A stretch of 57,168 nt of DNA from a virus (taxonomy: Duplodnaviria > Heunggongvirae > Uroviricota > Caudoviricetes): the IMG/VR virus record IMGVR_UViG_2537561944_000042. The stretch is one strand, 5' to 3'. Numbering within the stretch: position 1 is the first letter of the stretch; every line of letters begins with the position of its first letter. The notes beneath the pieces were generated by a model. The model was not told where the DNA came from, searched no databases, and saw only the letters and a list, made by a program, of their open reading frames with translations. Of this stretch, positions 1 to 57,168 are shown in pieces. Position numbers and translations under genes: made by a program.

Positions 1-101
1 CGTATTGCGCTGATCTTTGAATGACTTCAGGTAAGCATTATAGTCCGTGCGCAGCCCCAGCTTTTTAAGCTCAACGCGGGTCTGGCCTAATGTCAGCCTC
101 T

Positions 102-308
102 CTAATTTTTCTTCATCAAGGTTGTATCCCGGAAAAGAAACAAGAATTTTTTTAGGCCAAACTCTAGCAACTGTGCCTTGCCCATAAACAGACCGAACCG
201 TTCGATGAAGGGTTTACCCTCGTATATTTTGAGCCCAGCAAAAATCTTATCCCGAAGTTCCTGGCCACCCAGCGTATCAATATCCATGCGCGTTTCCTTT
301 TTAGACAT
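102..308 (-). CDS. hypothetical protein fragment; reading frame changes toward window start, probably disrupted or partial
   Basis: 68-aa ORF in track; positions 1..100 stay open in a different minus-strand frame; no recognisable motif. Confidence 0.2.
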   Translation of the reverse strand: MSKKETRMDIDTLGGQELRDKIFAGLKIYEGKPFIERFGLFMGKAQLLEFGLKKFLFLFRDTTLMKKN

Positions 309-404
309 TATTGGTAATGAAGTAACTTATTGAAGTTAGATGCACACATTATGTAAAGCTATTGGTAGTTGTGGACAGAAAACTCTTCTGTCCAGGTACA
401 GGGA

Positions 405-891
405 TTAATATGTAGTGAGGGGGGAACCGTACTCATCTATCACCCAGGAGGCCACAACAAGGACTGATTGATCGTCGTCGTCAACAAAAATGAACCCATG
501 CTTTTCATCTGCGCCATTCGTGAAGACTCGGGGATCATTTTTAAGTGAAACCCAGGAGGCGGTGTCTGGATCATGCCCTTTGTTACGGATGTTTCGAAGT
601 GCCGTTCTGGCAGATTCCCACTGTCTCATGATGTGTTGATTTGATTCCACCTCATGCAACAAATACTGCTTCAAACGAGAAATGGAAAGGAGCTGATTTG
701 GAGGTCTTCTGTAGACGTACATCATGTTCCCGTATCTCTTTGTTATCTGGCAAAGGTGCCAGTTTCGATATTGGGAAGGACCGGAAGGTTTTCAATAGCC
801 GATAGACATAAATTGCAGAACTTCCAGGCGGAACGTGAACGGAGCGGGTAATCAATGCCCGCTCCGTACCAGGAGCGTAAGTTGCTAACAA
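405..891 (-). pseudogene. hypothetical gene split over two overlapping frames (652..891 and 405..725), probable frameshift
   Basis: Two minus-strand ORFs overlap at ~705..725 and read as one protein if a 1-nt shift is allowed; no family recognised. Confidence 0.25.
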
Positions 892-1067
892 CAGTCTGAG
901 TTGATCAGCGGGGAGCAGGTCACTGGATTAGTTGAAAACTGGAACCTATTAGTTCCAGCCATTAATTAATAGCTTTCGAATTATTCTTGAAAAACAATCA
1001 AAAATAGTTGCCAAAACCAAATCAATTAGGACATATTAAACCCATGGTTTTTATTTGGAATTAGAGA

Positions 1068-1886
1068 ATGGAAATTCATGTTCCCATGGAAATGGTAGTA
1101 AGTGATGGAGAAGAAAGATTCACAGAGCTTGATTTTTACTATGGGTCAAAAGCACTTGAAGGCACGTCAGAGATAGTTACAGTCCTCACTAATACGATTC
1201 TAAATCGCGAAGTAGTTACTAAAATCCCATCAATCGAAGGCATAACCGCATCTTTTCGTACCAGTTATGAAGGGTCGTTTAGACAACGTTTCATGCTCAA
1301 GATCACAGGTGAGGAACAACGTAGAAACTATGGCGCAATCGGAGAGGGGGCATTTCTAGATGTTATGTCTTATTATCTTACAAGACCATTATTAACACCT
1401 TATAATTTCACATATAAAAGGGCTGCTAGAATTGTTAAAGAACTTGAGTCAGATTATAGTTCATTAATGAAGAGGCTTTATGGCCCACTATTGAAGCTTC
1501 ATAAGCCCATAGAAGAACAAAATTATACTGTTGAGCTGAAACGGAGAAGGACAAATCTTGCTCGGTATGATCACACGACCCTTGAAAATCTAATTGTTGA
1601 ACGTGCCGATGATGAAAGGATCATTATTGAAGCTTCTATTACAAGATTTAATCGGCTAACGGGGACGGGAAGGCTCATTCTTGAGGAAGATTCTGAGTCT
1701 GTAAGTTTTGAACCTTCATATCTTTGGAGAGATTTTCCAGCAGATCAAAAACGCTGGCTATCTAGAAACTTAGACGTCAACACAGATAATGGTGATTTTA
1801 CTCGTGTACGGCTAGAGGTGACATCAATCAGAAACTTTCTTGGTGTCATTAAAAAATATAGTCTTCACCGAGTTATAACGGATTGA
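1068..1886 (+). CDS. hypothetical soluble protein, first gene of AT-rich two-gene cassette (candidate defence/abortive-infection module)
   Basis: 272-aa ORF; AT-rich codon usage unlike flanking DNA; stop is 1 nt before the start of the next ORF; no motif recognised. Confidence 0.6.
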   Translation: MEIHVPMEMVVSDGEERFTELDFYYGSKALEGTSEIVTVLTNTILNREVVTKIPSIEGITASFRTSYEGSFRQRFMLKITGEEQRRNYGAIGEGAFLDVMSYYLTRPLLTPYNFTYKRAARIVKELESDYSSLMKRLYGPLLKLHKPIEEQNYTVELKRRRTNLARYDHTTLENLIVERADDERIIIEASITRFNRLTGTGRLILEEDSESVSFEPSYLWRDFPADQKRWLSRNLDVNTDNGDFTRVRLEVTSIRNFLGVIKKYSLHRVITD

Positions 1887-1887
1887 T

Positions 1888-2622
1888 ATGATAAAGTATG
1901 TTGCCTTTTTAGTTATATCAGTTACATGGTTGATTTATTTCTTCAATTTCGATCCGTTAAATGGTTTTCCAATTGATAAGTCTGAATGGGGAACATTTGG
2001 TGATTTCGTTGGCGGCGTAACCAACCCCATTTTGACATTTTTTACAATGATTATGTTAATTAAATCAATAAACTTACAAAAAGAGGCTAACATCAGCATT
2101 ATTAAACAAAATTTGCACATGCATGAGGTTTCAGAAAGACAAAAAGAAATTGATGACTTGCGCTCTTTTGAATCATCGTTTTATAGCCTCGCTGAAGTAT
2201 CTAGAAGAGAGTTTGATGCCCTCAGAATAACTGGTAGAAATAAAAAAAACTACTCAGCCTCAGATGCGGTAACCTATTTAGAGAGTTACATGATAAACTC
2301 ATGTAAGTCAAAAAATGCAGAAGAATTATGCAAACAATTTTCTATTTTTGATAATGAATCCTCTATGGCTCTCTTTTCTGCGGTTCGTAGTTTTTATATT
2401 CTATTTAAATTCACAAATGAATCTTGCCCAGAAAACCACAAAGAAAGATATTACGAAATAGCAAATTATACTATGCCTGTGAAATTTCTTCATTTGGTAT
2501 GTTTGGCATACGTATTTAGTGATTGGAAAATAATAAAAGACTTTGAAAGTTTCGGTTTTTTCAATCGCAAAGGATTAGATAAATACATCATGGATTTTAT
2601 GGATGTAAAGAACTTTTATTAG
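1888..2622 (+). CDS. predicted membrane protein with two N-terminal TM helices and WGxFGDFxGG motif; resembles putative phage abortive-infection membrane proteins
   Basis: 244-aa ORF; hydrophobic stretches FLVISVTWLIYFF and ILTFFTMIMLI; tightly coupled to upstream ORF; AT-rich. Confidence 0.6.
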   Translation: MIKYVAFLVISVTWLIYFFNFDPLNGFPIDKSEWGTFGDFVGGVTNPILTFFTMIMLIKSINLQKEANISIIKQNLHMHEVSERQKEIDDLRSFESSFYSLAEVSRREFDALRITGRNKKNYSASDAVTYLESYMINSCKSKNAEELCKQFSIFDNESSMALFSAVRSFYILFKFTNESCPENHKERYYEIANYTMPVKFLHLVCLAYVFSDWKIIKDFESFGFFNRKGLDKYIMDFMDVKNFY

Positions 2623-3025
2623 TTATCAAGATAATTTGACCCTTTGCTAGCCGTTCCCCTATCATCATGATAGTAAGCCGTATGTTTAGATGGTTTATGT
2701 CTGAGATTTTGAGTATCAAATCTTTGGGTCTCGTAAAAAGGTTTGAATCGCTAAGGATAATCTGGACGTCTCCAGGGTCGTTAATTAGACTGACCCCACC
2801 CCGATAGACGATCACTCCCCTATAGTAATAAGCACCATTTCGGACTTCCGCTTCTCGCTCACAACGGACCTTCAGCTCAGCCGCTCCGGCCGCTTCATGC
2901 AATGAATGTACGCAGCCAGTCAGAATATTAAGGTGCGGATTTCAGTTCACTTGTCAGCCCTGTGATGCAACAAGTTGCGGCTCCGGTTCGTGGGAGAGAT
3001 GAAACGACGGTAGCTGAAGTTACTG

Positions 3026-4164
3026 GTAAGCGTGCAGCAAGAACCGTATTGACGGGGATGTGTTATTCAGTCGGCAGTGCTACGCGCCAGGGGAGCAGTT
3101 CGCCGACCCGGTTTATCGGCCAGTCGGCTATGACGTCAAGGACATAGCGGAGGTAGCTTTCTGGCTCCACTCCGTTCAGTTTGCACGTCCCGATCAGGCT
3201 GTACAGCAGCGCTCCCCGCTCTCCTCCATGATCCGAACCGAAGAACAGGTAGTTTTTGCGGCCCAGACTGACCATCCGCAACGCATTTTCAGCGATGTTA
3301 TTGTCCGCCTCAGCCCAGCCATCATCTGCATAGTACGTCAGCGCCGGCCACTGGTTCAGGGCGTATGCGAACGCTTTCGCCAGTTCTGAGTGTCGCGACA
3401 GGGTTTTCATCTTTTCACGCAGCCAGCTTTCCAGGGATTTCAGCAGCGGTTTCGTTTTCAACTGACGTTCGGCAAGGCGCTGCTCCGCCGTCATTCCCCT
3501 TATCTCTGCCTCGATGGCGTACAGTTCGCCGATCCGTTTCAGCGCTTCCTCCGTCAGGGCTGACGGGGTGCGAACGTGCACATCGTGGATTTTACGGCGG
3601 GCGTGAGCCCAACAGGCGGCTTCCGTTATCCGGCCATCCCGGTACAGCTCGTTGAACCCGGCGTATGCATCCGCCTGCAGTACACCACTGAACCCCGCAA
3701 GATGGGTCTGCGGATGGATGCCTTTTCTGTCCGGGCTGTAAGCGAACAACACCGCCGGCGCCAGCGTTGACCCGGCGTTACGGTCGTCACGAACGTAGGT
3801 CCATAACCGCCCGGTCTTCGTTTTCTTATTGCCTGGCAACAGCACCGGGACAGGCGTGTCATCAGCATGGAGCTTACCGTCAGTCAGCACATAGTCCTGA
3901 AGCGCTTCTTCCAGCGGTGACAGTAGCCGGCAGCATGCATCCACCCAGCCCGACAGCAGTGAACGACTCAGCTCCACGCCCTGGCGGCCGTACATTTCAG
4001 ACTGGCGGTACAGCGGGGTGTGCTCTGCATACTTTGAGATCAGCACGCGGGCCAGCAGCCCCGGTCCTGCGATACCCCGCTCGATGGGCCGTGAAGGCGC
4101 GGGGGCCTGCACGATGGCATCGCACTGAGTACAGGCATGCTTTTCACGTACAGTCCGGATAACC
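3026..4164 (-). mobile_element. 5'-truncated IS66-family element remnant (3' part of tnpC plus right terminus), cut by the adjacent IS66 copy
   Basis: Terminus GTAAGCGTGCAGCAAGAACCGTATTGA at 3026 matches the terminus of the full copy at 4165; protein homology to TnpC runs up to ~4160. Confidence 0.6.
3063..4112 (-). pseudogene. IS66-family transposase TnpC, N-terminally truncated (C-terminal ~2/3 only)
   Basis: 349-aa ORF aligns to residues ~175-523 of the neighbouring full-length TnpC ([26 protein letters not shown] blocks); track start is GTG. Confidence 0.75.
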
Positions 4165-4194
4165 GTAAGCGACTCGTCAGAACCGTATTGATAT

Positions 4195-5766
4195 TTACTG
4201 AGAGCTCAGATCAACTTTCCAGGGCAACAGATCGCGTACCCGGTTTGCCGGCCAGTCCTGGATATGTTCAATGACGTAACGCAGCCACTTTTCTGGCTCC
4301 ACATTGTTCAGACGGCATGTGCCGATCAGCGAGTACAACACCGCCGCATGTTCACCACCGCTGTCGGAACCCGCGAACATCCAGTTTTTCCGGCCTACGG
4401 CCACTCCCCGTAAGGCGTTCTCTGCGATGTTGTTGTCGATTTCCACCCAGCCATTACTGCAGTACACGTTCAGTGCATCCCACTGTTTCAGCAGGTATGC
4501 GAACGCTTTTGCCGTATCTGAGTGACGCGACAGTGTTTTCATCTGTTGCTGTATCCAGTCATACAGTGACTGCATCAGTGGCGCGGCTCTGGCTTTTCTT
4601 GCCGCCAGACGCTGTTCTGCTGAACAGCCCCGGACCTCTGCCTCGATGGCATACAGTTCACCGATACGCTGCAGGGCTTCCGTGGTGATGTAGGTGGGCG
4701 CTCTTGCATGCACATCGTGGATTTTTCTCCGGGCATGAGCCATACACGCGGCTTCCGTTATTCTGCCGGATTCGTATAACGCCCGGTAACCACCGTAAGC
4801 ATCGGCCTGAAGCACACCGCTGTAACCGGCCAGGTGATTTTGTGGATGGATACCTTTCCGGTCCGGACTGTACGCGAACCAGACCGCCGGGGGCATCTGT
4901 GAACCGGCGTTACGGTCATCACGGACGTAGACCCACAGCCGGGCTGTCCGGGTTTTACCGCTGCCCGGCTCCTGGACCGGGACGGGGATATCATCAGCAT
5001 GGACTTTACCGGGCATCAGCACATACTGGCGCAGGACGTCATACAGCGGCTCCAGCAGTTCAGCAACAGCACCTGTCCAGCGCCCCAGTGTGGCACGGCT
5101 CAGCTCCACTCCCTGACGACGGTATATTTCTGACTGGCGGTATAACGGCAGATGGTCTGCATATTTCCCGGTGACAACATGGGCCAGAAGCCCCGCTCCG
5201 GCATAACTGCGTGCAATGGGTTTTGAAGGTACTGGTGCCTGCACGATATGGTCGCACCGGCAACAGGCCTGTTTCGGACGTTGTGTTTCGATAACCTTAA
5301 AGGCGCTGCTGATAAGCTCCAGTTGCTCTGACACATCACATCCCAGAGAACTGAGTTCACCACCACAGGCAGGACAGCATTCCTCTTCCGGCCGGATAAC
5401 CCGGGTTTCACGGGGAAGTGAGGCCGGTAACGGTTTACGGGCTGAAGACTGGCGCAGGGCGGATGGCAGTACCGGGTCATATTGCTCACCCAGCGTTTCC
5501 GCCATTTCTTCCTGAAGTGCGCTGATTCGCTCCTGTGCTTCCTGTATCTGCCGTTCGGTTTTTGCACGAAGTTTTTCTGAGCTTTTACCGAACTGCATAC
5601 GTTGCAGTTTCGCAACCAGCGCCTTCAGCCGGTTGATTTCGGAAGCATAAGCCGCCACCCGCTGTGAGAGCAGGCGGTTGTATTCAGCCATCTGGCGGAT
5701 GGTGTCCTGTTGCGTCTGCAACAGTGCCCGCAGGCGGGCGTTCTCATGAGCAAGTGAGGTGTCCAT
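4195..5766 (-). CDS. tnpC: IS66-family transposase TnpC (orf3)
   Basis: 523-aa ORF with N-terminal coiled coil, Cys-rich zinc-ribbon (CPACGG...CRCDH) and conserved IS66 transposase core. Confidence 0.9.
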
Positions 5767-5785
5767 ATCCTCACTTTACAACGGG

Positions 5786-6133
5786 TTATATGCGGATTCC
5801 AGCGCGTTCCGTTCGTTTCGGGTGCTTCCAGTTGATACCTTCAAGAAGCATGGATAACTGAGCCGGAGTAAGGTGCACCTTGCCGTCACGGGTGACTGGC
5901 CAGACGAAGCGGCCCCGCTCCAGGCGTTTGGTGAAGAGGCACAGTCCGTCACTGTCAGCCCACAACACTTTTATCTGGTCACCCCGGCGTCCGCGGAAGA
6001 TGAACAGGTGTCCGGAGAACGGGTCATCCTTCAGGACGTTCTGAACTTTTGATGCCAGGCCGTTAAAGCCATTTCGCATATCGGTGATACCTGCAACCAG
6101 CCAGATACGCGAACCTGCAGGGAGAGATATCAT
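5786..6133 (-). CDS. tnpB: IS66-family accessory protein TnpB (orf2)
   Basis: 115-aa ORF directly upstream of tnpC; sequence typical of IS66 Orf2 (recalled from memory). Confidence 0.85.
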   Translation of the reverse strand: MISLPAGSRIWLVAGITDMRNGFNGLASKVQNVLKDDPFSGHLFIFRGRRGDQIKVLWADSDGLCLFTKRLERGRFVWPVTRDGKVHLTPAQLSMLLEGINWKHPKRTERAGIRI

Positions 6134-6468
6134 CAGTGGCTGCTCCCTTTTATTTCGCGGATAAGTGTCTGTAATAACGCCGGCGTCAGTTTACCTTTAA
6201 GCCTGAGAGTTCCGGCCGGCAGAACCAGCTCACAACACAGACTGTCGGACGGTGTATTTATCTGCTCTGGTTCCTGTGCGGGGGCCGGGATTTTATTATC
6301 CGGCTCCGGCGTTAACGTCACGGGAAGCAGTGCCGGCATATTTTTTCCGGAAGGCAGCAGGCCACCTTTCCGGTATTGATGGCGCCAGTTGAAGAGCAGG
6401 TTATCGTTGATTCCGTTTTCCCGGGCGATCTGCGCCACACAGGCTCCGGGCTGCAGTGACTGCTCCAC
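6133..6468 (-). CDS. tnpA: IS66-family accessory protein TnpA (orf1)
   Basis: 111-aa ORF overlapping tnpB start, typical IS66 orf1 position; HTH-like N-terminus. Confidence 0.8.
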   Translation of the reverse strand: MEQSLQPGACVAQIARENGINDNLLFNWRHQYRKGGLLPSGKNMPALLPVTLTPEPDNKIPAPAQEPEQINTPSDSLCCELVLPAGTLRLKGKLTPALLQTLIREIKGSSH

Positions 6469-6560
6469 TAAGGCGATTTTAAACTCATAAGGGAAGTTGG
6501 GCCGCCGGGGACGTTTTTTACCACGGGGGCTTCGGATATAACGGTGCTTTCAGGACGTAC

Positions 6561-6809
6561 GACTGGTACCGTGGAAAATTGTCCGTAAAGGCAGGCATCA
6601 AGTTCCTGCTCCGACATGCCTGCGGGCAAAGGCCACGAAAGGCCAGCTCTCCGAAAGCGCACGAACATACTACAAACTGTTGATTTTGGTACACCCAGGC
6701 GACGCCCGGCCACAACCCGGGGTAAATGTTCTTCAAAGTGAAGACGTAAAGCTTCAGTGATCCAGGTCCGGTGTTTCATACGATAGTGTCCATTAAAAAT
6801 GATGGACAT
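6561..6809 (-). pseudogene. N-terminal helix-turn-helix fragment of an unrelated transposase, truncated by the IS66 insertion
   Basis: Track ORF 6468..6809 (113 aa) starts outside IS66 and runs into its end; HTH-like RRLGVPKSTVCSMFVRFRRAG; no catalytic domain. Confidence 0.4.
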
Positions 6810-7281
6810 TATTTTTGTAGAGCCGGAGGAAACAGACCAGACGGTTTAAATGAGCCGGTTACGACTTACTTGGCTTTAGTCCCGGAGTGTTGCCAGGAGT
6901 ATCTTTATTATCTCGTCGGCGTTGATCTGGTTTTCCTGTCGATTTAGCAATTGGTTTTGGACCAGGTTTAAGACCCATGATAGTTATCCTTTTGAGATGT
7001 AAGAGGGAAGCCCTCAACATTGGTATATTGGATACTGAGAAATTTTTCAATGGGAGTGATAAACGGCCGAATGATTAACTCGATATTGTGATCAACGTCT
7101 GTTTTTTGCACACTGTAGACTGACTCTTGGAGCAGAAGGTTGCTCTGAGCGAGGAATGGACAGTTACACTCATCACCAACGCCAATAGCCTCATTACGCG
7201 TATAAAGCTGTATTAATCATTGGGGAGCAGTTTAATGCGGGATTTTCGACTTATGGACTTGATTCAGGTGTCAAAATTAAA

Positions 7282-8298
7282 ATGAGCAGTGTAAGGACAG
7301 ACAAGTTCATTAGGTATGGTTTTGCGGTTGTGGCGATAGTTGCCATACTCATTACTACTATCACAACCCCCAATCCCACACCTTATCAATATATAGTTTA
7401 CCGAATAGTTCTGGTTCTGGCTGCCGGATGTATTGGTGCAGTTCTGCCTGGTTTCCTTGAAGTAAAATTTAATGGGTGGTTAAGAGCATCTGGCGCAGTG
7501 GCGATCTTCGCTATAGTGTTTTTCATAAGCCCAGATTTGCTTCAACAAAATCCTGAATCTGCAAGTAAACCTGTACCGCCTACTGTGATTGATGCATATG
7601 CCGTTAATAGTTCCAATCGCGACAGATACCTCGAATTATTTCGAACAGGACAGTTCGGTCAGCGGGACAAGCTGCGCATCGGTTGTGTTGAGTGGAGTGA
7701 ATCATCGTGCGTGGCTGCTGGTAATTTTTTGCGATTGTTAAGCGAAGCTGGCTGGGAAATCGATTCTGACGCTGTATTCAGAATGCAACCATCCGTGCCA
7801 GTTGAGGGGGTATCGATTGTAAGCCGTGGCGATGATCTGGTCGGTTTGCCAAAAGTACCACCCCACATGGGCCGTTGGAGTCGATCAGACATTAGTTATG
7901 AAATTTTGACAGCGGCATTTAAATTGATGGGAGTTCCGGTTTATTTTTCCAGTGACCCGACATTACAACCAGGTACTACCGGAGTGTACTTTGGACCGAA
8001 ACCGAAACTGGATGCACCAGTCATGCAAAAAGATGAGAATGTGCGACGTGAGCTTCTCCGCTACGTCGGTTTGGGAATGACTATTCAGCGAGCCTGCTCT
8101 CAGCAGCCCGTCGAACTTTGTGGGGGTGAAATCTTTTCCTGGGAAACGTCGGTATCTTCGTTCCTAAGGCAGCAGAGATTCAACTCCGATGCCGTAAACA
8201 GATGGCTTGCCTTGCCGCAGGTTAATGCGGCTTCGGCAACTGCAGACATGAAAATAAAGCTAGATTTGTTAATGTCATTTGTTCTGGGCATCGAGTAA
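7282..8298 (+). CDS. hypothetical membrane protein (three N-terminal TM helices, ~240-aa soluble C-terminal domain)
   Basis: 338-aa ORF; hydrophobic segments at residues ~13-30, ~35-60, ~68-85; no catalytic motif recognised. Confidence 0.55.
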   Translation: MSSVRTDKFIRYGFAVVAIVAILITTITTPNPTPYQYIVYRIVLVLAAGCIGAVLPGFLEVKFNGWLRASGAVAIFAIVFFISPDLLQQNPESASKPVPPTVIDAYAVNSSNRDRYLELFRTGQFGQRDKLRIGCVEWSESSCVAAGNFLRLLSEAGWEIDSDAVFRMQPSVPVEGVSIVSRGDDLVGLPKVPPHMGRWSRSDISYEILTAAFKLMGVPVYFSSDPTLQPGTTGVYFGPKPKLDAPVMQKDENVRRELLRYVGLGMTIQRACSQQPVELCGGEIFSWETSVSSFLRQQRFNSDAVNRWLALPQVNAASATADMKIKLDLLMSFVLGIE

Positions 8299-8446
8299 CT
8301 ATACCTCTTGCGAGGATGATTGAGCGTCTAATGGACCAGCTTAGCCGTTAGCGCTATTTGTTTACGTAAGCCTGTGGAATCCAACTAGTGCTTCTACGAT
8401 GCGTTGTTTGGTGAAAAAAAAGTGTTGAAGCACTGGTTTTAGACAA

Positions 8447-8727
8447 CTAAAGCCACGATTTGCTCATGCGTCGAAAATGTAGTCGTCTACTGTGTAGCAC
8501 GGAGGCGATATTCGTACGCTTACACTTGCCGATAGGCCACTGGGGAGTGTTCTTGGCACTAAGCTGCCAGGCCCGAAGGTCTGCTATGAGCGAGGGGCTG
8601 ACATTCCTATTGGCATTCGGTGTGAGTTATCGGGGGCGGTCATGCGGCATACTTCCGATACAGGCGTTTCCAGCTCTGCCTGTTTCAGGGTTATATTAAT
8701 CTGCTTTAGAATTAATCGTGGCTTTAG
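8447..8727. repeat. perfect 14-bp inverted repeat pair (CTAAAGCCACGATT / AATCGTGGCTTTAG) flanking a ~250-bp GC-rich segment
   Basis: Exact reverse-complement 14-mers at 8447..8460 and 8714..8727. Confidence 0.55.
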
Positions 8728-8941
8728 CATCTGCACATCGTGCTGGAGAAACCTGAGTGAACTAAATCATATTCCCTTTCTTCAGCTAATCAATTGATAG
8801 TTATGCGGAAAAAGTTACTTTGCTTGTCAATAATCCATTTCACATCCGTTAATCCAATGCTATGCGTCTTCGCATTAATCTGGAAAGGTAGTAAGTGAAA
8901 TAAAAACTTAGCCAATGACTAATATCTGAGGATACTTTGTC

Positions 8942-52342: not shown

Positions 52343-52430
52343 CGTAACCTACTGGATAAATACTCAATAGTACCATTTCGGTATGCAATCACATCATGGT
52401 TGCATCATATCATTCTTCTGGAGCAATGAA

Positions 52431-54554
52431 ATGTCAGATATCACCGCAAATGTTGTGGTCAGCATGCCTTCGCAACTCTTCACTATGTCTCGCTCTTTTA
52501 AAGCCGTAGCCAATGGAAAAATTTATATCGGTAAAATTGACACTGACCCGGTAAATCCAGAAAACCAGATTCAGGTTTATGTGGAAAACGAAGACGGTTC
52601 TCACGTTCCTGTTTCGCAACCAATCATCATTAACGCTGCTGGTTACCCTGTATATAACGGACAGATTGCCAAGTTCGTAACTGTGCAAGGCCATTCTATG
52701 GCTGTTTATGATGCATACGGTGCGCAGCAGTTCTATTTTCCGAATGTGCTAAAGTATGATCCAGATCAGTTTAAGGGCAATCTCCTGAGCGAAGATCACT
52801 CACTTGGCGACTCTCTAGTCATGCATAACCCACAGTTTGTCGATAGCACATCGACCATTCTCTCAAAAAAGCTAACTATCGACCTGAGGACGCTTACAGA
52901 CTACGGGTTTGCTGAGGGAAACACCGGTGCTCAGAACAAAGCTGCATTTCAGAAGGCTATTGATGATGCTACGTTGCCAACTGAGATTGTTATACCAGAG
53001 GGGGCGTTCATTGTTGACCCTGGTATTACGATTAAGAATACTGTCACCATGATACGAGGTGCTGGCGCATATCAGTCCAGAATTTTCTCTACGGGTACAG
53101 CGGCACCGATAATCACGCAACAAGATGGGGTAATTACGTTCTGCGAGTTCAGGGACTTTGGTCTTGACGGAAATGGCTACGCAGCTAACGGCATCAGTCT
53201 TACTGAAGCCAACCACATTAAAATAGAAAATATTGACGTGGTTAATACTAATAACAACGCAATATTAGTTAACGGTTACTCCATTGACATCATTGGGTGC
53301 CGGTTGTTTCAAAACGCCGGTAACGGTATTAATGTTGGTGGTTACTGCAATAATATTAATATAATCAACAGCCGTATCTATGGTAACGGAGCCGGTGGAG
53401 TTTTACTTACGCCAGCTTACGCTGAGGGCGGTATGAGCGTCAGAGTTAATGGCAACAATATAGAGCAAAATAAGTTCTACGGACTTTTGGCTTACGGGGT
53501 TAAAGGCCTTAACCTTGATGCTAACTATTGGGAACGCAACGGTGAGATTGGTTACCCGTATAGTGTACCTGAGTCTATTACAGTACGTGCGGATATCCAC
53601 CTTATCGCGAACAATTTTACATTAATTCCTGACCTTTCAAAAATTAATGATACCGTATCTATTCGCGGGAATCAGCAGACCGCGATTGGCTACGCCAGCG
53701 CGCTACCTAACCAAGACGGATTTATTTTCACGAACTATGCGAAAAACCTGACGATTGAAAATAATCAGTTATTAGACGCATCGAAAGTGAATAATTTATT
53801 AGCAATGTACCACAATAATCTTTCGTCCAAAGTTACTGACAGGCTATATCTTGCCAACAACACAGTGAACTCCATCGGATACGTTGGTAGTTATGACCCG
53901 GCGACACAAAACCCTGACACTGCGCATTTAATAGATATTGCGAACAGAGAGTTAACTGCTAACTATCTTGATCGAAATATGTTGCTCTGGACTGCGGCAT
54001 CTGGAACTACAGGAACATTGATAAAAACTCAAAACATCTATGCTGGTAATTATTCATTCTTAGTTACGACAGGAGATAGAGTTTGGGGACGAACGATAGA
54101 CCTCAACAAATCACCAGAACTAAAAGGGAAATTTGTATGGTTTGGTGCGTGGGTCAATGACCAGGGATCAGCGTCAAAACTTATGTTTATAATTAATGGT
54201 GCAGGACAAACAGACTCTACAGCACCTTTAGCTGGTAATGGGAAATGGAGCTATGTTAGTTGTGGTGTGTATATATACGAAACTGATACAGCTATAAATG
54301 TTGGTATAAGAAATTATGGTTCAGGAAATGTACTCATAAACTCACCTTCTCTATGTGCATATGGAATGCCATCAAACGCGTTGCAAGTTGAAAAAACAAC
54401 ATTTTATCTTTCGTCAGTACCTACATCCGGTTTCTGGGATATAGGTGAGCGTGTTATCAATAGCGCACCTGCTTCAGGACAACCAAAGGCATGGACATGC
54501 AATATTCCAGGTGGGCCAGGAACCTATTCTTTCTTATCAGAGGGAAACTTTTAA
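52431..54554 (+). CDS. tailspike protein (P22 gp9-like N-terminal head-binding domain plus divergent beta-helix receptor-binding domain)
   Basis: [13 protein letters not shown]...[40 protein letters not shown]... matches the P22 tailspike N-terminus as recalled; ATG at 52431 with GGAG RBS. Confidence 0.85.
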
Positions 54555-54590: not shown

Positions 54591-55766
54591 ATGTTTAAAA
54601 AAATCAGTAAAACACATTTTGATATGGAAAGAAAAACAAATAAGTTAGACTCTATTCAAGTCCTTAGAGGGATCGCGGTACTTCTAGTCATTGCGTTTCA
54701 CTTTAGAGTATATTTAAATGGAGTGTATGCCCAAAAGGACTTGGGCGACATTCTTTTTGGTATAGGTGAGGTTGGTGTTGATATATTCTTTGTTATAAGT
54801 GGATTTATCATTACTTATTCTTCAATGAATAAGGCAAAAAACCGGCCAATGGTGTTTGCTGCTAAGCGTTTTTTTAGGTTGTACCCTGTTTACTTTATAA
54901 TCCTTACTCTGGCTATATACCTCAACTATGAGGCAATATATACATCATCACAAATAATAAAGAGCTACTTGCTCATACCAATTGACTATAATTTTATAGG
55001 GCCATGGTCAGGTTATAGTATAATAATACCTGCATGGACACTAACGTATGAAATTTGGTTCTATGTGGTTTTCTTTTTTTCATTATGCATCAGCCATAAA
55101 TATAGAACTGCGATCGCATCATTTCTTCTCATCATTATTTGCGTTCTTGGTCAACTGTACTTTCACGGAGATGTTTTTCTAAATCCTATCGCGCAACCGC
55201 CATCTGGTGATGGAATTATTCGTAATCTGGTATTTGTATCAAATCCAATAATATATGACTTTATTTTGGGGATGATTATTGCAGAGGCCTACATTAGGCT
55301 ACCTTCTAGACTTATAAATAAAATGCCTGTTGTTCAATTTCTTAATATTACATTAGCGATTGCCTTGCTTTTTTTATGTCTAGGGTTAAGGAATGGACCT
55401 GGAATTGTAGCATGGGGGGCTTATTCATTTATGATTATAGCCCCAATAGTCCTTATTTCTAAGTGTAGGGATGTATATAGAAATAAAATTCTAACGTATG
55501 TTGGTGAAATATCCTATTCACTTTACATTAATCATATGGTTGTATACAGTCTTGCTGTTTTATATCTCAAACCGTACGGGGTATTGGATAGTAAAGGATT
55601 TGGTGTTTTTCTAGCTATGATTTGCGCTACTTTTATTATATCAATCATATCTTATAACTTTATTGAAAAACCATCAGTATCCATAGGGCATGCCATCGCT
55701 CGTAGAATGCAAAAAAAATCAGATGTATCTTCAATTAAAACTGAATCCGTTAGAGAAGCACCTTGA
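54591..55766 (+). CDS. acyltransferase-3 family membrane protein (O-antigen acetyltransferase-like lysogenic conversion gene); start may be the second ATG at 54624
   Basis: 391-aa polytopic membrane ORF; N-terminal ...VLRGIAVLLVIAFHF... typical of acyltransferase 3; AT-rich. Confidence 0.8.
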   Translation: MFKKISKTHFDMERKTNKLDSIQVLRGIAVLLVIAFHFRVYLNGVYAQKDLGDILFGIGEVGVDIFFVISGFIITYSSMNKAKNRPMVFAAKRFFRLYPVYFIILTLAIYLNYEAIYTSSQIIKSYLLIPIDYNFIGPWSGYSIIIPAWTLTYEIWFYVVFFFSLCISHKYRTAIASFLLIIICVLGQLYFHGDVFLNPIAQPPSGDGIIRNLVFVSNPIIYDFILGMIIAEAYIRLPSRLINKMPVVQFLNITLAIALLFLCLGLRNGPGIVAWGAYSFMIIAPIVLISKCRDVYRNKILTYVGEISYSLYINHMVVYSLAVLYLKPYGVLDSKGFGVFLAMICATFIISIISYNFIEKPSVSIGHAIARRMQKKSDVSSIKTESVREAP

Positions 55767-56010
55767 TAAATAGAGCAATAGCCAGATAGCACCTAACCGA
55801 TTTCGTACTCATAGGGTTGTCACTTTACCAAACTGAGAGGAAATACACTGATAACAGTTGGTTATGAAGTACTGGGTGAGGTGGATGTGAATGGTATTTT
55901 GATGCATTTCATTAACCTGTACGCCTAAGAAAGCAACCCTGAAATCTAAGACACACAAGCTTTGCACTGGATTGCAAGGCTTTGTGCACTTCGATAGTGG
56001 TTAAGGTGGT

Positions 56011-57168
56011 TCACTCCACCTTTTCATCAAGCCAGTCCGCCCACCATTGCATCATTTCTCTGCGCTTATCGAGATACTGAGCATGGTTGTAAATACCGCG
56101 CACAGATCCGCCGTTGGCATGTGCCAGTTGCACTTCAATAGCGTCAGCAGGCCATTCGTGCTCGTTCATAATCGTGCTGAATTCATGCCTGAATCCGTGA
56201 CCGCTTTCCAGACCCTCATAGCCGATTTGTTTGATCACAAGTAGCACCGCGTTCTCGCAGATTGGCTTCTTCTTATCGTTGCGCCCGGCAAAAACAAATT
56301 CTGATACTGGTTTGGTGATGGAGCTTAACGTAGTGAGAAGTTCAACCACCTGGTCCGACATCGGGACAACATGAATTTTGCGTCCCTTCATCACATTGGC
56401 GTCAATGGTGATAATCCTGTTTTCAAAATCGACGTTCTTCCATTGCATGGAACGAAGCTCTTTTGTTCTTAGGGCTGTGTAGCGTAAAACCTTGGTGGCA
56501 ATGAGCGATACGATACTTCCTGAAAATGTTGCCAGTGCTTTATTGAATGCCGGGATCTGGTCTGCAGGAAGAAACGGGAAGTTCTTCTTGCGGTATCCCC
56601 TCATGGCGTCAGCAAGGTCAGGTGCCGGGTTATATTTAGCCCTGCCGGTGACAATAGCGTAACGGAAAACCTCGCCGCATCTTCTGCGGGCTTTATTTGC
56701 TCGCTCCATTGCACCGCGATCTTCAAATCTGCGGATTACTTCCAGCAGTTGCATCGGCTCAATATCCTGAATTTCAAGGCCGCCGATGATAGGCAAAATG
56801 TCGTCATCAAACATTTTTGCAAGTTCAGTCGCATACCCTACTGACCATACTTGCTTCTTGTGCTCGTACCATTCCTTGTAAATCGCACTAAAGGAATTGT
56901 TGTTAGACGAAGCCTTTTTCGCCTTTACCGGATCGATGCCAACCGAGATGTCTTTCCTCGCAGTCCATGCCTTATCCCTTGCCTCCTGCAAAGTCATTAG
57001 CGGATATTTTCCGACGGTCAGGATTTTCTCCTTACCGTCAATCTTGTAGCGAAGCTGCCATACCTTTTTCCCGGATACAGGAACATAAAGGTACAGGCCA
57101 TTACCATCGAGAAGGCGGTATGGTTTTTCTTTCGGCTTTGCTGCTTCAATCTGCTTAACGGTGAGCAT
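56011..57168 (-). CDS. intS: P4-type tyrosine integrase, apparently intact (IntS-like); ATG sits exactly at the window edge
   Basis: 385-aa ORF; N-terminal MLTVKQIEAAKPKEKPYRLLDGNGLYLYV...; C-terminal catalytic region with HGFRHEF and YNHAQY; symbol from memory of E. coli CPS-53 IntS. Confidence 0.8.
   Translation of the reverse strand: MLTVKQIEAAKPKEKPYRLLDGNGLYLYVPVSGKKVWQLRYKIDGKEKILTVGKYPLMTLQEARDKAWTARKDISVGIDPVKAKKASSNNNSFSAIYKEWYEHKKQVWSVGYATELAKMFDDDILPIIGGLEIQDIEPMQLLEVIRRFEDRGAMERANKARRRCGEVFRYAIVTGRAKYNPAPDLADAMRGYRKKNFPFLPADQIPAFNKALATFSGSIVSLIATKVLRYTALRTKELRSMQWKNVDFENRIITIDANVMKGRKIHVVPMSDQVVELLTTLSSITKPVSEFVFAGRNDKKKPICENAVLLVIKQIGYEGLESGHGFRHEFSTIMNEHEWPADAIEVQLAHANGGSVRGIYNHAQYLDKRREMMQWWADWLDEKVE

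What the first reader, a model, noticed from the sequence alone, without database searches (positions are those of the whole stretch)
55767..57168. Second, intact P4-type integrase at the right edge, paralogous to the inactivated island integrase
The two integrases share conserved blocks (for example RRCGEVFRYAIVTGRA, FAGRND, HGFRH, MMQW) but are clearly diverged. The intact one starts exactly at the window edge and faces the acyltransferase gene across 244 bp. It is probably the prophage integrase with its tRNA target just beyond the window, which makes the defective copy the island's own.
Basis: inference. Interest (0 to 1): 0.4.

Follow-up and report, generated by a model that had tools for sequence, protein, structure and literature searches.

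The report
Prophage IntS integrase beside tRNA-Arg argW

Summary
The finding is confirmed and already known. Window 56011-57168 (minus strand) is an intact 385-aa tyrosine recombinase, 99.2% identical to E. coli K-12 IntS and 98.4% to the phage HK620 integrase. The window matches E. coli O26:H11 chromosomes at 100%. In two of them, the tRNA-Arg gene argW lies 161 nt beyond the window edge, with its 3' end pointing at the integrase start, as in K-12.

In HK620 the attP core lies upstream of int. The integrase therefore stays next to the tailspike and acyltransferase genes in the prophage. The 15-nt argW core occurs once in the window (15401-15415). It sits between the prophage excisionase gene torI (15489-15689, 100% identical to K-12 TorI) and the start of the defective integrase (14035-15225). 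There is no copy in the 244-bp spacer.

The defective integrase is 48.7% identical to IntS. One TAC-to-TAA change at codon 222 inactivates it, and it has its own repeat motifs in the arm regions. Its intact orthologue sits directly beside argW in strains that show no prophage between them. The locus is thus a tandem array: argW, a roughly 42-kb prophage, then the island.

The parts
56011..57168 (-). intS: intact 385-aa P4-type tyrosine integrase of the P22-like prophage. The start codon is the last three bases of the window.
   Evidence: ORF. Pfam Arm-DNA-bind_3 + Phage_int_M + Phage_integrase. 99.2% identical to K-12 IntS and 98.4% to HK620 Int. RefSeq names it 'prophage integrase IntS'. The NMR structure 2kj8 of the CPS-53 integrase core-binding domain matches residues 87-197.
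55767..56010. 244-bp spacer between the convergent acyltransferase and intS genes. The 55942-56010 part travels with the int module and folds into a terminator-like hairpin on the minus strand. The 55767-55941 part found no match in the phage collection. The spacer holds no att core.
   Evidence: Phage matches to the int module begin at window 55942-55963. HK620 annotates a terminator just downstream of int. Hairpin fold, z = -2.0. No core copy. No credible Rfam match. The simple terminator scan found nothing.
54591..55766 (+). Acyltransferase-3 family gene, at the position of the O-antigen modification cargo of P22-like phages. RefSeq starts it at 54624.
   Evidence: Pfam Acyl_transf_3, E 1e-28. 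RefSeq 'acyltransferase family protein'.
52383..54554 (+). P22-type tailspike gene, the last structural gene of the prophage.
   Evidence: Pfam Head_binding (E 2e-67) + Beta_helix. RefSeq 'phage tailspike protein'.
15401..15415 (+). The only copy in the window of the 15-nt argW 3'-end core TGGTGTCCCCTGCAG. It is the far junction of the prophage (called attR in KplE1) and at the same time the integrase-proximal junction of the island.
   Evidence: Single exact match in the window. Identical to the HK620 'attP core' and to the 3' end of argW.
15416..15733 (.). The phage-derived arm of the far junction (attR). It holds two GGGTAAAA repeats, presumed IntS arm-type sites (15475-15482 and 15487-15494, reverse orientation), torI, and the region that HK620 annotates as the cII-dependent integration promoter.
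   Evidence: 96% identical to HK620 attP and to K-12 attR over 300 nt. HK620 annotation.
15489..15689 (-). torI (= HK620 hkaC): the excisionase (recombination directionality factor) that partners IntS.
   Evidence: The 66-aa product is 100% identical to K-12 TorI and HK620 HkaC. RefSeq annotates torI in strain 11368.
14035..15225 (-). The island's own integrase, a pseudogene with TAA at codon 222 (14560-14562).
   Evidence: Translation and alignment. RefSeq 'tyrosine-type recombinase/integrase, internal stop'. The intact orthologue in CP020058.1 differs at 2 of 1381 nt; one of these is window 14560, T here against G there, which is TAC (Tyr) to TAA on the coding strand.
15226..15400 (.). The island arm between the core and the defective integrase start. 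It carries GGGGGCC repeats at 15228 and 15269 (inverted) in place of the IntS-type GGGTAAAA repeats.
   Evidence: Motif counts. Matching GGGCCCC repeats lie at the island's far junction in strain 11368.

Best explanation
The gene is intS, the integrase of a roughly 42-kb P22-like (HK620/Sf6-type) prophage inserted in the 3' end of the tRNA-Arg gene argW of E. coli O26:H11.

In this phage group the attachment site lies upstream of int. After integration the order is argW, attL, intS, acyltransferase, tailspike, late genes, early genes, torI, attR.

From published work on the near-identical K-12 module: IntS recombines the 15-nt core shared by argW and the phage. It needs the excisionase TorI, encoded at the other end of the prophage, to run the reaction toward excision. 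In the prophage it is transcribed from its own promoter inside attL, where IntS and TorI bind and repress it.

That promoter, attL and argW lie just outside the window. The window was evidently cut at the gene boundary.

The prophage lies between argW and an argW island whose own, 49%-identical integrase has been lost to a single nonsense mutation. That the island was there first is inferred.

Shown here: identity, geometry, att copies, the partner gene and the nature of the mutation. Taken from the literature or inferred: catalytic activity, autoregulation and the order of arrival.
For: - IntS identity: 99.2% to K-12 IntS and 98.4% to HK620 Int, with the full domain set.
- Source: the window's two ends match O26:H11 chromosomes at 100%.
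- tRNA: argW lies 161 nt beyond the int start in strains 11368 and 2014C-3057, followed by yfdC. K-12 has the same 161-nt spacing.
- attL: the 176 nt from the int start to the core are 97.2% identical to K-12 attL. They hold three GGGTAAAA repeats.
- attP geometry: the HK620 attP core is annotated upstream of int, with a 'prophage excision' promoter between them.
- Core copies: one copy in the window at 15401-15415 and none in the 244-bp spacer. Strain 11368 has three: in argW, between torI and the defective integrase, and at the island's far end next to the csc/dsdA genes.
- Partner gene: TorI is 100% identical to K-12 TorI.
- Prophage content: RefSeq annotates P22-type coat, gp4, gp10, tail needle, ejection proteins, tailspike, Erf, Kil and anti-RecBCD.
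- The island integrase is intact and directly beside argW in strains AR_0061 and ARS-C301.
- Literature: the KplE1/HK620/Sf6 argW recombination module, intS autoregulation at attL and the TorI requirement are described in PMC2951348 and PMC3509656.
Against: - Nothing in the sequence contradicts this reading.
- argW and attL are not in the window itself. They are inferred from chromosomes that are 100% identical over the adjoining 2.7 kb.
- Activity of this particular allele (3 residues different from K-12 IntS) and inducibility of this prophage were not tested. RefSeq marks a few early-region genes of the prophage in strain 11368 as pseudogenes, so the prophage may not be fully viable.
Confidence: 0.95

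Rival explanations
1. Lambda/P22-style layout. The P22-like prophage would own the defective integrase at its left end (downstream of the excisionase in the leftward early operon). The intact integrase at the right edge would belong to a separate remnant next to the tRNA, such as a KplE1-like stub.
For: The defective integrase lies about 260 nt from torI, on the same strand and downstream of it, as int follows xis in lambda or P22. K-12 does carry a degraded IntS element at argW.
Against: The argW core at 15401-15415 separates torI from the defective integrase. No core lies between the acyltransferase and intS. HK620 has int next to the tailspike end, with attP upstream of int. The region from the core through torI is 96% identical to HK620 attP, and that similarity stops at the core. 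The defective integrase has different repeats in its arms. Its intact orthologue sits beside argW in strains that show no prophage between them.
Confidence: 0.02
2. The window is a free or circularly permuted phage genome, or a mis-assembly, in which int and the acyltransferase are adjacent only because attP is intact.
For: The tailspike-acyltransferase-int order is the same as in packaged HK620/Sf6-type genomes. The window ends exactly at a gene boundary.
Against: The same 57-kb arrangement with chromosomal flanks occurs in complete O26:H11 chromosomes. 105 genomes cover the right end and 74 cover the left 16 kb. The left 15 kb is island and IS sequence, not phage. At 57 kb the window is too long for a P22-like genome of 38-42 kb.
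Confidence: 0.01
3. The intact ORF is a silent relic. It is correctly assigned to the prophage but no longer active, or the prophage can no longer excise.
For: K-12 shows that intS modules persist in degraded prophages. Some early genes of this prophage are annotated as pseudogenes in strain 11368.
Against: The ORF is full length and differs from K-12 IntS at only 3 residues. None of these lies in the HGFRH, LAH or GIYNH motifs. K-12 IntS is active in vivo and in vitro (PMC2951348). TorI, attL and attR are 96-100% conserved.
Confidence: 0.1

Closest known systems
IntS of the cryptic prophage KplE1 (CPS-53) of E. coli K-12, at argW
   Same: 99.2% identical protein. Same argW-161 nt-intS geometry. 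attL is 97% identical. TorI at the far end is 100% identical. Same 15-nt core.
   Different: K-12 carries a 10-kb remnant with gtrABC-like cargo and no lytic genes. Here the module belongs to a full-length (about 42 kb) P22-like prophage with an acyltransferase as cargo, followed by a second argW element.
Integrases of the P22-like phages HK620, Sf6, CUS-3, Sf101 and Kapi1
   Same: 95-97% nucleotide identity over int. int lies next to the tailspike/O-antigen modification end. In HK620 the attP core is annotated upstream of int. Integration at argW is reported for Kapi1, and for KplE1 and HK620 as a group.
   Different: The cargo gene beside int differs. This 380-391-aa acyltransferase and most of the spacer have no match in the phage collection.
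P4 / CP4-type integrases (Arm-DNA-bind_3 N-terminal domain, tRNA-associated, transcribed away from the tRNA)
   Same: Same three-domain architecture. The same-orientation tRNA-integrase arrangement is the one predicted to be autoregulated (PMC2951348).
   Different: The similarity is at family level only. The NCBIfam PRK09692 model scores 237 bits, below its 434-bit cut-off. The partner excisionase is TorI rather than P4 Vis.
The island integrase in the same window (14035-15225) and its intact orthologue WP_001131472.1
   Same: Same family and same argW core. The spacing from core to start codon is similar (about 175 nt against 161 nt).
   Different: Only 48.7% identical. Different repeats in the arms (GGGGGCC/GGGCCCC against GGGTAAAA). 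Inactivated here by a Tyr222 stop.

Membership tests
Tyrosine recombinase / phage integrase (Pfam PF00589) | Full-length catalytic domain above the curated threshold | tested here: met
   135.7 bits against a cut-off of 27.1, covering profile positions 2-170 of 172.
Tyrosine recombinase / phage integrase (Pfam PF00589) | Catalytic residues present (Arg, His-x-x-Arg, His, Tyr nucleophile) | tested here: inconclusive
   LRTKELR, HGFRH, LAH and GIYNH were located by eye in the sequence. No residue-by-residue alignment to a protein with solved catalytic residues was made. All four motifs are identical in K-12 IntS, which is experimentally active (PMC2951348).
P4-type integrase architecture | N-terminal Arm-DNA-bind_3 domain, then the central SAM-like domain, then the catalytic domain | tested here: met
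   PF13356 at residues 2-86, PF22022 at 93-188, PF00589 at 199-365. PDB 3ju0/3jtz (CP4-like integrase N-terminal domains) and 2kj8 match.
P4-type integrase architecture | Gene lies next to a tRNA gene and reads away from its 3' end, with the att core between them | tested here: met
   argW 3' end, then 161 nt, then the intS start, on the same strand, in two genomes 100% identical to the window's right end. This lies outside the window itself.
KplE1/HK620/Sf6 argW recombination module | IntS-type integrase | tested here: met
   99.2% identical to K-12 IntS and 98.4% to HK620 Int.
KplE1/HK620/Sf6 argW recombination module | TorI/HkaC excisionase encoded at the opposite end of the prophage, next to attR | tested here: met
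   Window 15489-15689 (minus strand) encodes a 66-aa protein 100% identical to TorI and HkaC. It lies 74 nt from the core.
KplE1/HK620/Sf6 argW recombination module | Core identical to the 3' end of argW at both junctions, with conserved arms | tested here: met
   The core is at 15401-15415 and inside argW. The attR side is 96% identical to K-12 and HK620, and the attL side 97% to K-12.
KplE1/HK620/Sf6 argW recombination module | Integrative and excisive recombination activity; negative autoregulation of intS at attL | not testable with these tools
   Known for the K-12 module (PMC2951348, PMC3509656). Inferred here from near-identity.
P22-like prophage (genus Lederbergvirus and relatives) | P22-type tailspike head-binding domain, coat, gp4/gp10/tail needle and ejection proteins in P22 order | tested here: met
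   Head_binding, E 2e-67. RefSeq product names in strain 11368. No independent protein searches were run for the other structural genes.

The most novel reading that the evidence does not exclude
The intact IntS shares its 15-nt core with the neighbouring island, whose own integrase is dead. IntS might therefore act in trans on the island junctions. It could excise the island alone, or the prophage and island together as one roughly 68-kb unit between argW and the far core, so that a phage integrase keeps a crippled island mobile.
Probability: 0.05. Interest if true: 0.35.

Novelty: already known. Interest (0 to 1): 0.08.

Why it matters
It matters little beyond correct annotation. The finding fixes the prophage boundaries: from the core at 15401 to argW, about 176 nt beyond the window edge. 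It also shows that the window was cut inside attL, at the integrase start codon.

It shows that the order 'integrase next to tailspike' is the normal integrated form for HK620/Sf6-type phages and is not a sign of an unintegrated genome. Automated prophage callers that cut at the integrase gene will lose attL, the intS promoter and the tRNA.

The tandem array is a tidy but unsurprising example of stacking of mobile elements at one tRNA gene. It holds two diverged integrases that use the same core but carry different repeats in their arms.

Tried and rejected
- I first expected a P22/lambda-style layout with attP downstream of int. That would have made the intact integrase foreign to the prophage and the defective one its own. 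The HK620 annotation (attP core upstream of int) and the position of the only core copy rejected this.
- ARAGORN found no tRNA gene in the window.
- A 25-nt argW 3' probe with up to 3 mismatches found nothing, because phage homology to argW ends after 15 nt. The 15-nt core probe then found one site.
- My first translation of the defective integrase used a start one base off and gave nonsense. This was corrected.
- The simple terminator scan of the spacer found nothing.
- Rfam gave only a chance snoRNA match in the spacer (E 0.8).
- The Ogura 2009 genome paper, wanted for the official prophage and island names, is not held. The O26 mobilome paper does not describe this prophage.

Full report
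**1. The observation.** Window 56011-57168 holds an uninterrupted 385-codon ORF on the minus strand. Its ATG is the last three bases of the window. Pfam finds the complete P4-type integrase architecture:
- Arm-DNA-bind_3, residues 2-86
- Phage_int_M, residues 93-188
- Phage_integrase, residues 199-365, at 135.7 bits against a cut-off of 27.1

The upstream neighbour on the plus strand is an Acyl_transf_3 protein that ends at 55766. Before it lies a P22-type tailspike (Head_binding, E 2e-67). The two genes converge across exactly 244 bp.

A second integrase exists at 14035-15225 (minus strand). It has 396 codons with one in-frame TAA at codon 222 (14560-14562). It is 48.7% identical to the intact one in protein and about 60% in DNA. 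Three of the four quoted blocks are shared exactly. The fourth differs at its first residue (QRCGEV... in the defective copy).

**2. Where the window comes from.** The last 2.7 kb and the first 16 kb of the window match complete E. coli O26:H11 chromosomes at 100% (strain 11368, 2014C-3057 and many others). 105 genomes cover the right end and 74 cover the left part. RefSeq names the gene 'prophage integrase IntS'. The protein is 99.2% identical to IntS of the K-12 cryptic prophage KplE1/CPS-53 and 98.4% to the integrase of phage HK620. At DNA level it is 95-97% identical to the int genes of HK620, Sf6, CUS-3, Sf101, Kapi1 and several Stx phages.

**3. The tRNA beyond the edge.** In strains 11368 and 2014C-3057 the sequence continues past the integrase start with 161 nt. 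It then reaches a 75-nt tRNA-Arg gene on the same strand, with its 3' end toward the integrase, and then yfdC and mlaA. K-12 has the same arrangement and spacing, argW-161 nt-intS. The 176 nt from the int start to the end of the core are 97.2% identical to K-12 attL. They carry three GGGTAAAA repeats.

**4. Why the integrase sits next to the acyltransferase.** I first suspected a lambda/P22-type layout, in which attP lies downstream of int. In that case int and the tailspike-side cargo would end up at opposite ends of the prophage, and the intact integrase would not belong to this prophage. The HK620 record settles this. Its annotated attP core (1368-1383) lies upstream of int (50-1207, complement), with a 'prophage excision' promoter between them. 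The excisionase gene hkaC and the cII-dependent 'phage integration' promoter lie on the far side of the core. Integration therefore leaves int attached to the tailspike end, reading away from the tRNA. It sends the excisionase to the other end. This is the arrangement in the window.

**5. The att copies.** The 15-nt core TGGTGTCCCCTGCAG (the 3' end of argW) occurs once in the window, at 15401-15415, and not in the 244-bp spacer.
- To the right of the core, the sequence is 96% identical to HK620 attP and K-12 attR over 300 nt. It includes two GGGTAAAA repeats and a 66-codon gene (15489-15689, minus strand) whose product is 100% identical to TorI/HkaC.
- To the left of the core, the HK620 similarity stops. 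175 nt further on is the start of the defective integrase.
- In strain 11368 the core occurs three times: inside argW, at this middle position, and at the far end of the island just before the csc/dsdA genes.

The locus is therefore a tandem array: argW, then a prophage of about 42 kb (from 15401 to about 176 nt beyond the window), then the core, then an island of about 27 kb, then the core, then the chromosome.

**6. The defective copy is the island's own.** Its flanks carry GGGGGCC/GGGCCCC repeats, both near its start (15228, 15269) and at the island's far junction. These take the place of the IntS-type GGGTAAAA repeats. Of the 5426 complete E. coli genomes, 341 hold this gene. In many rows of the sample listed, the match also overlaps an annotated tRNA-Arg gene. 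In strains AR_0061 and ARS-C301 it is an intact 396-aa gene lying directly beside argW and yfdC, with no prophage between. The AR_0061 copy differs from the window at 2 of 1381 nt. One of these is window 14560, which turns Tyr222 (TAC) into TAA. The likeliest history, which is inferred, is that the island was at argW first and the phage then inserted at the reconstituted tRNA end. The island integrase was lost by a recent point mutation.

**7. How it works.** The mechanism is taken from the K-12 work, which applies by near-identity. IntS is the tyrosine recombinase for both integration and excision at argW. TorI is required to direct the reaction toward excision. [quoted passage not shown] Integrase and excisionase expression are therefore uncoupled (PMC2951348; PMC3509656). 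That promoter and attL are outside the window, because the window ends at the start codon. Downstream of int, the 69 nt next to the stop codon travel with the int module in other phages. They fold into a terminator-like hairpin at the position where HK620 annotates a terminator. The other 175 nt of the spacer found no match in the phage collection.

**8. Comparison and novelty.** This is the known KplE1/HK620/Sf6 argW recombination module in a P22-like prophage of a sequenced, annotated pathogen lineage. Every membership feature that could be tested was met, except that the catalytic residues were located by eye only. Activity cannot be tested here. Nothing is new except strain-level details: the acyltransferase cargo and the tandem island with a Tyr222-stop integrase.

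The only less ordinary reading that the data leave open is that IntS might act on the island's junctions, because the core is shared. The different arm repeats make this unlikely (about 5%).

**9. Verdict.** The finding is already known and of low interest.

Noticed in passing
window 15709-15724 (also L002/HK620 1677-1692): GAATCGAACCTGCAA (15710-15724) is exactly the stretch of argW that follows the 15-nt core in the tRNA gene. Here it lies 294 nt away from the core copy at 15401-15415, with torI and the two GGGTAAAA repeats in between. The 16-mer probe that contains it is unique in the window and occurred in none of 100 shuffles. It looks as if the torI segment sits inside an older, longer block of tRNA homology. 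HK620 annotates this spot as the cII-dependent integration promoter.
   Followed up: partly
window 14560: The island integrase is inactivated by a single base change, TAC (Tyr222) to TAA on the coding strand. An orthologue differing at only 2 of 1381 nt is intact and directly beside argW in strain AR_0061 (CP020058.1).
   Followed up: yes
window 15226-15290; L006 (NC_013361.1) 1460-1500, reverse strand: The island has its own repeats in the arm regions: GGGGGCC near the integrase start and GGGCCCC twice at the far junction. They differ from the IntS-type GGGTAAAA repeats. At the far junction the identity to argW extends to 19 nt (TGGTGTCCCCTGCAGGAAT), against 15 nt for the prophage.
   Followed up: partly
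window right edge, 57168: The window ends on the first base of the integrase start codon. attL, the intS promoter and argW are therefore cut off. This looks like a boundary drawn at a gene call, not a biological end.
   Followed up: yes
between window 15225 and 56011, compared with NC_013361.1: Strain 11368 is about 1.26 kb shorter than the window somewhere between the two integrases, judging from the coordinate offset of the pseudogene. Strain 2014C-3057 is collinear to within 5 nt. The position and nature of the difference were not examined.
   Followed up: no
window 1-13000 (island part): The island segment is heavily colonised by insertion sequences: IS66-family elements including a direct 73-76% repeat at 3338-3876 and 4470-5008, and IS3-family copies. 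It also carries an HsdR N-terminal fragment and a PapB/FocB-like regulator. In strain 11368 it continues beyond the window's left edge to Ag43, antirestriction and YeeU genes.
   Followed up: no
window 54591-55941: The acyltransferase gene and the adjoining 175 nt of spacer have no match at megablast or blastn level in the 50,697-record phage collection. They are present in 105 complete E. coli genomes. This may be an O-antigen acetylation cargo specific to this prophage lineage.
   Followed up: no
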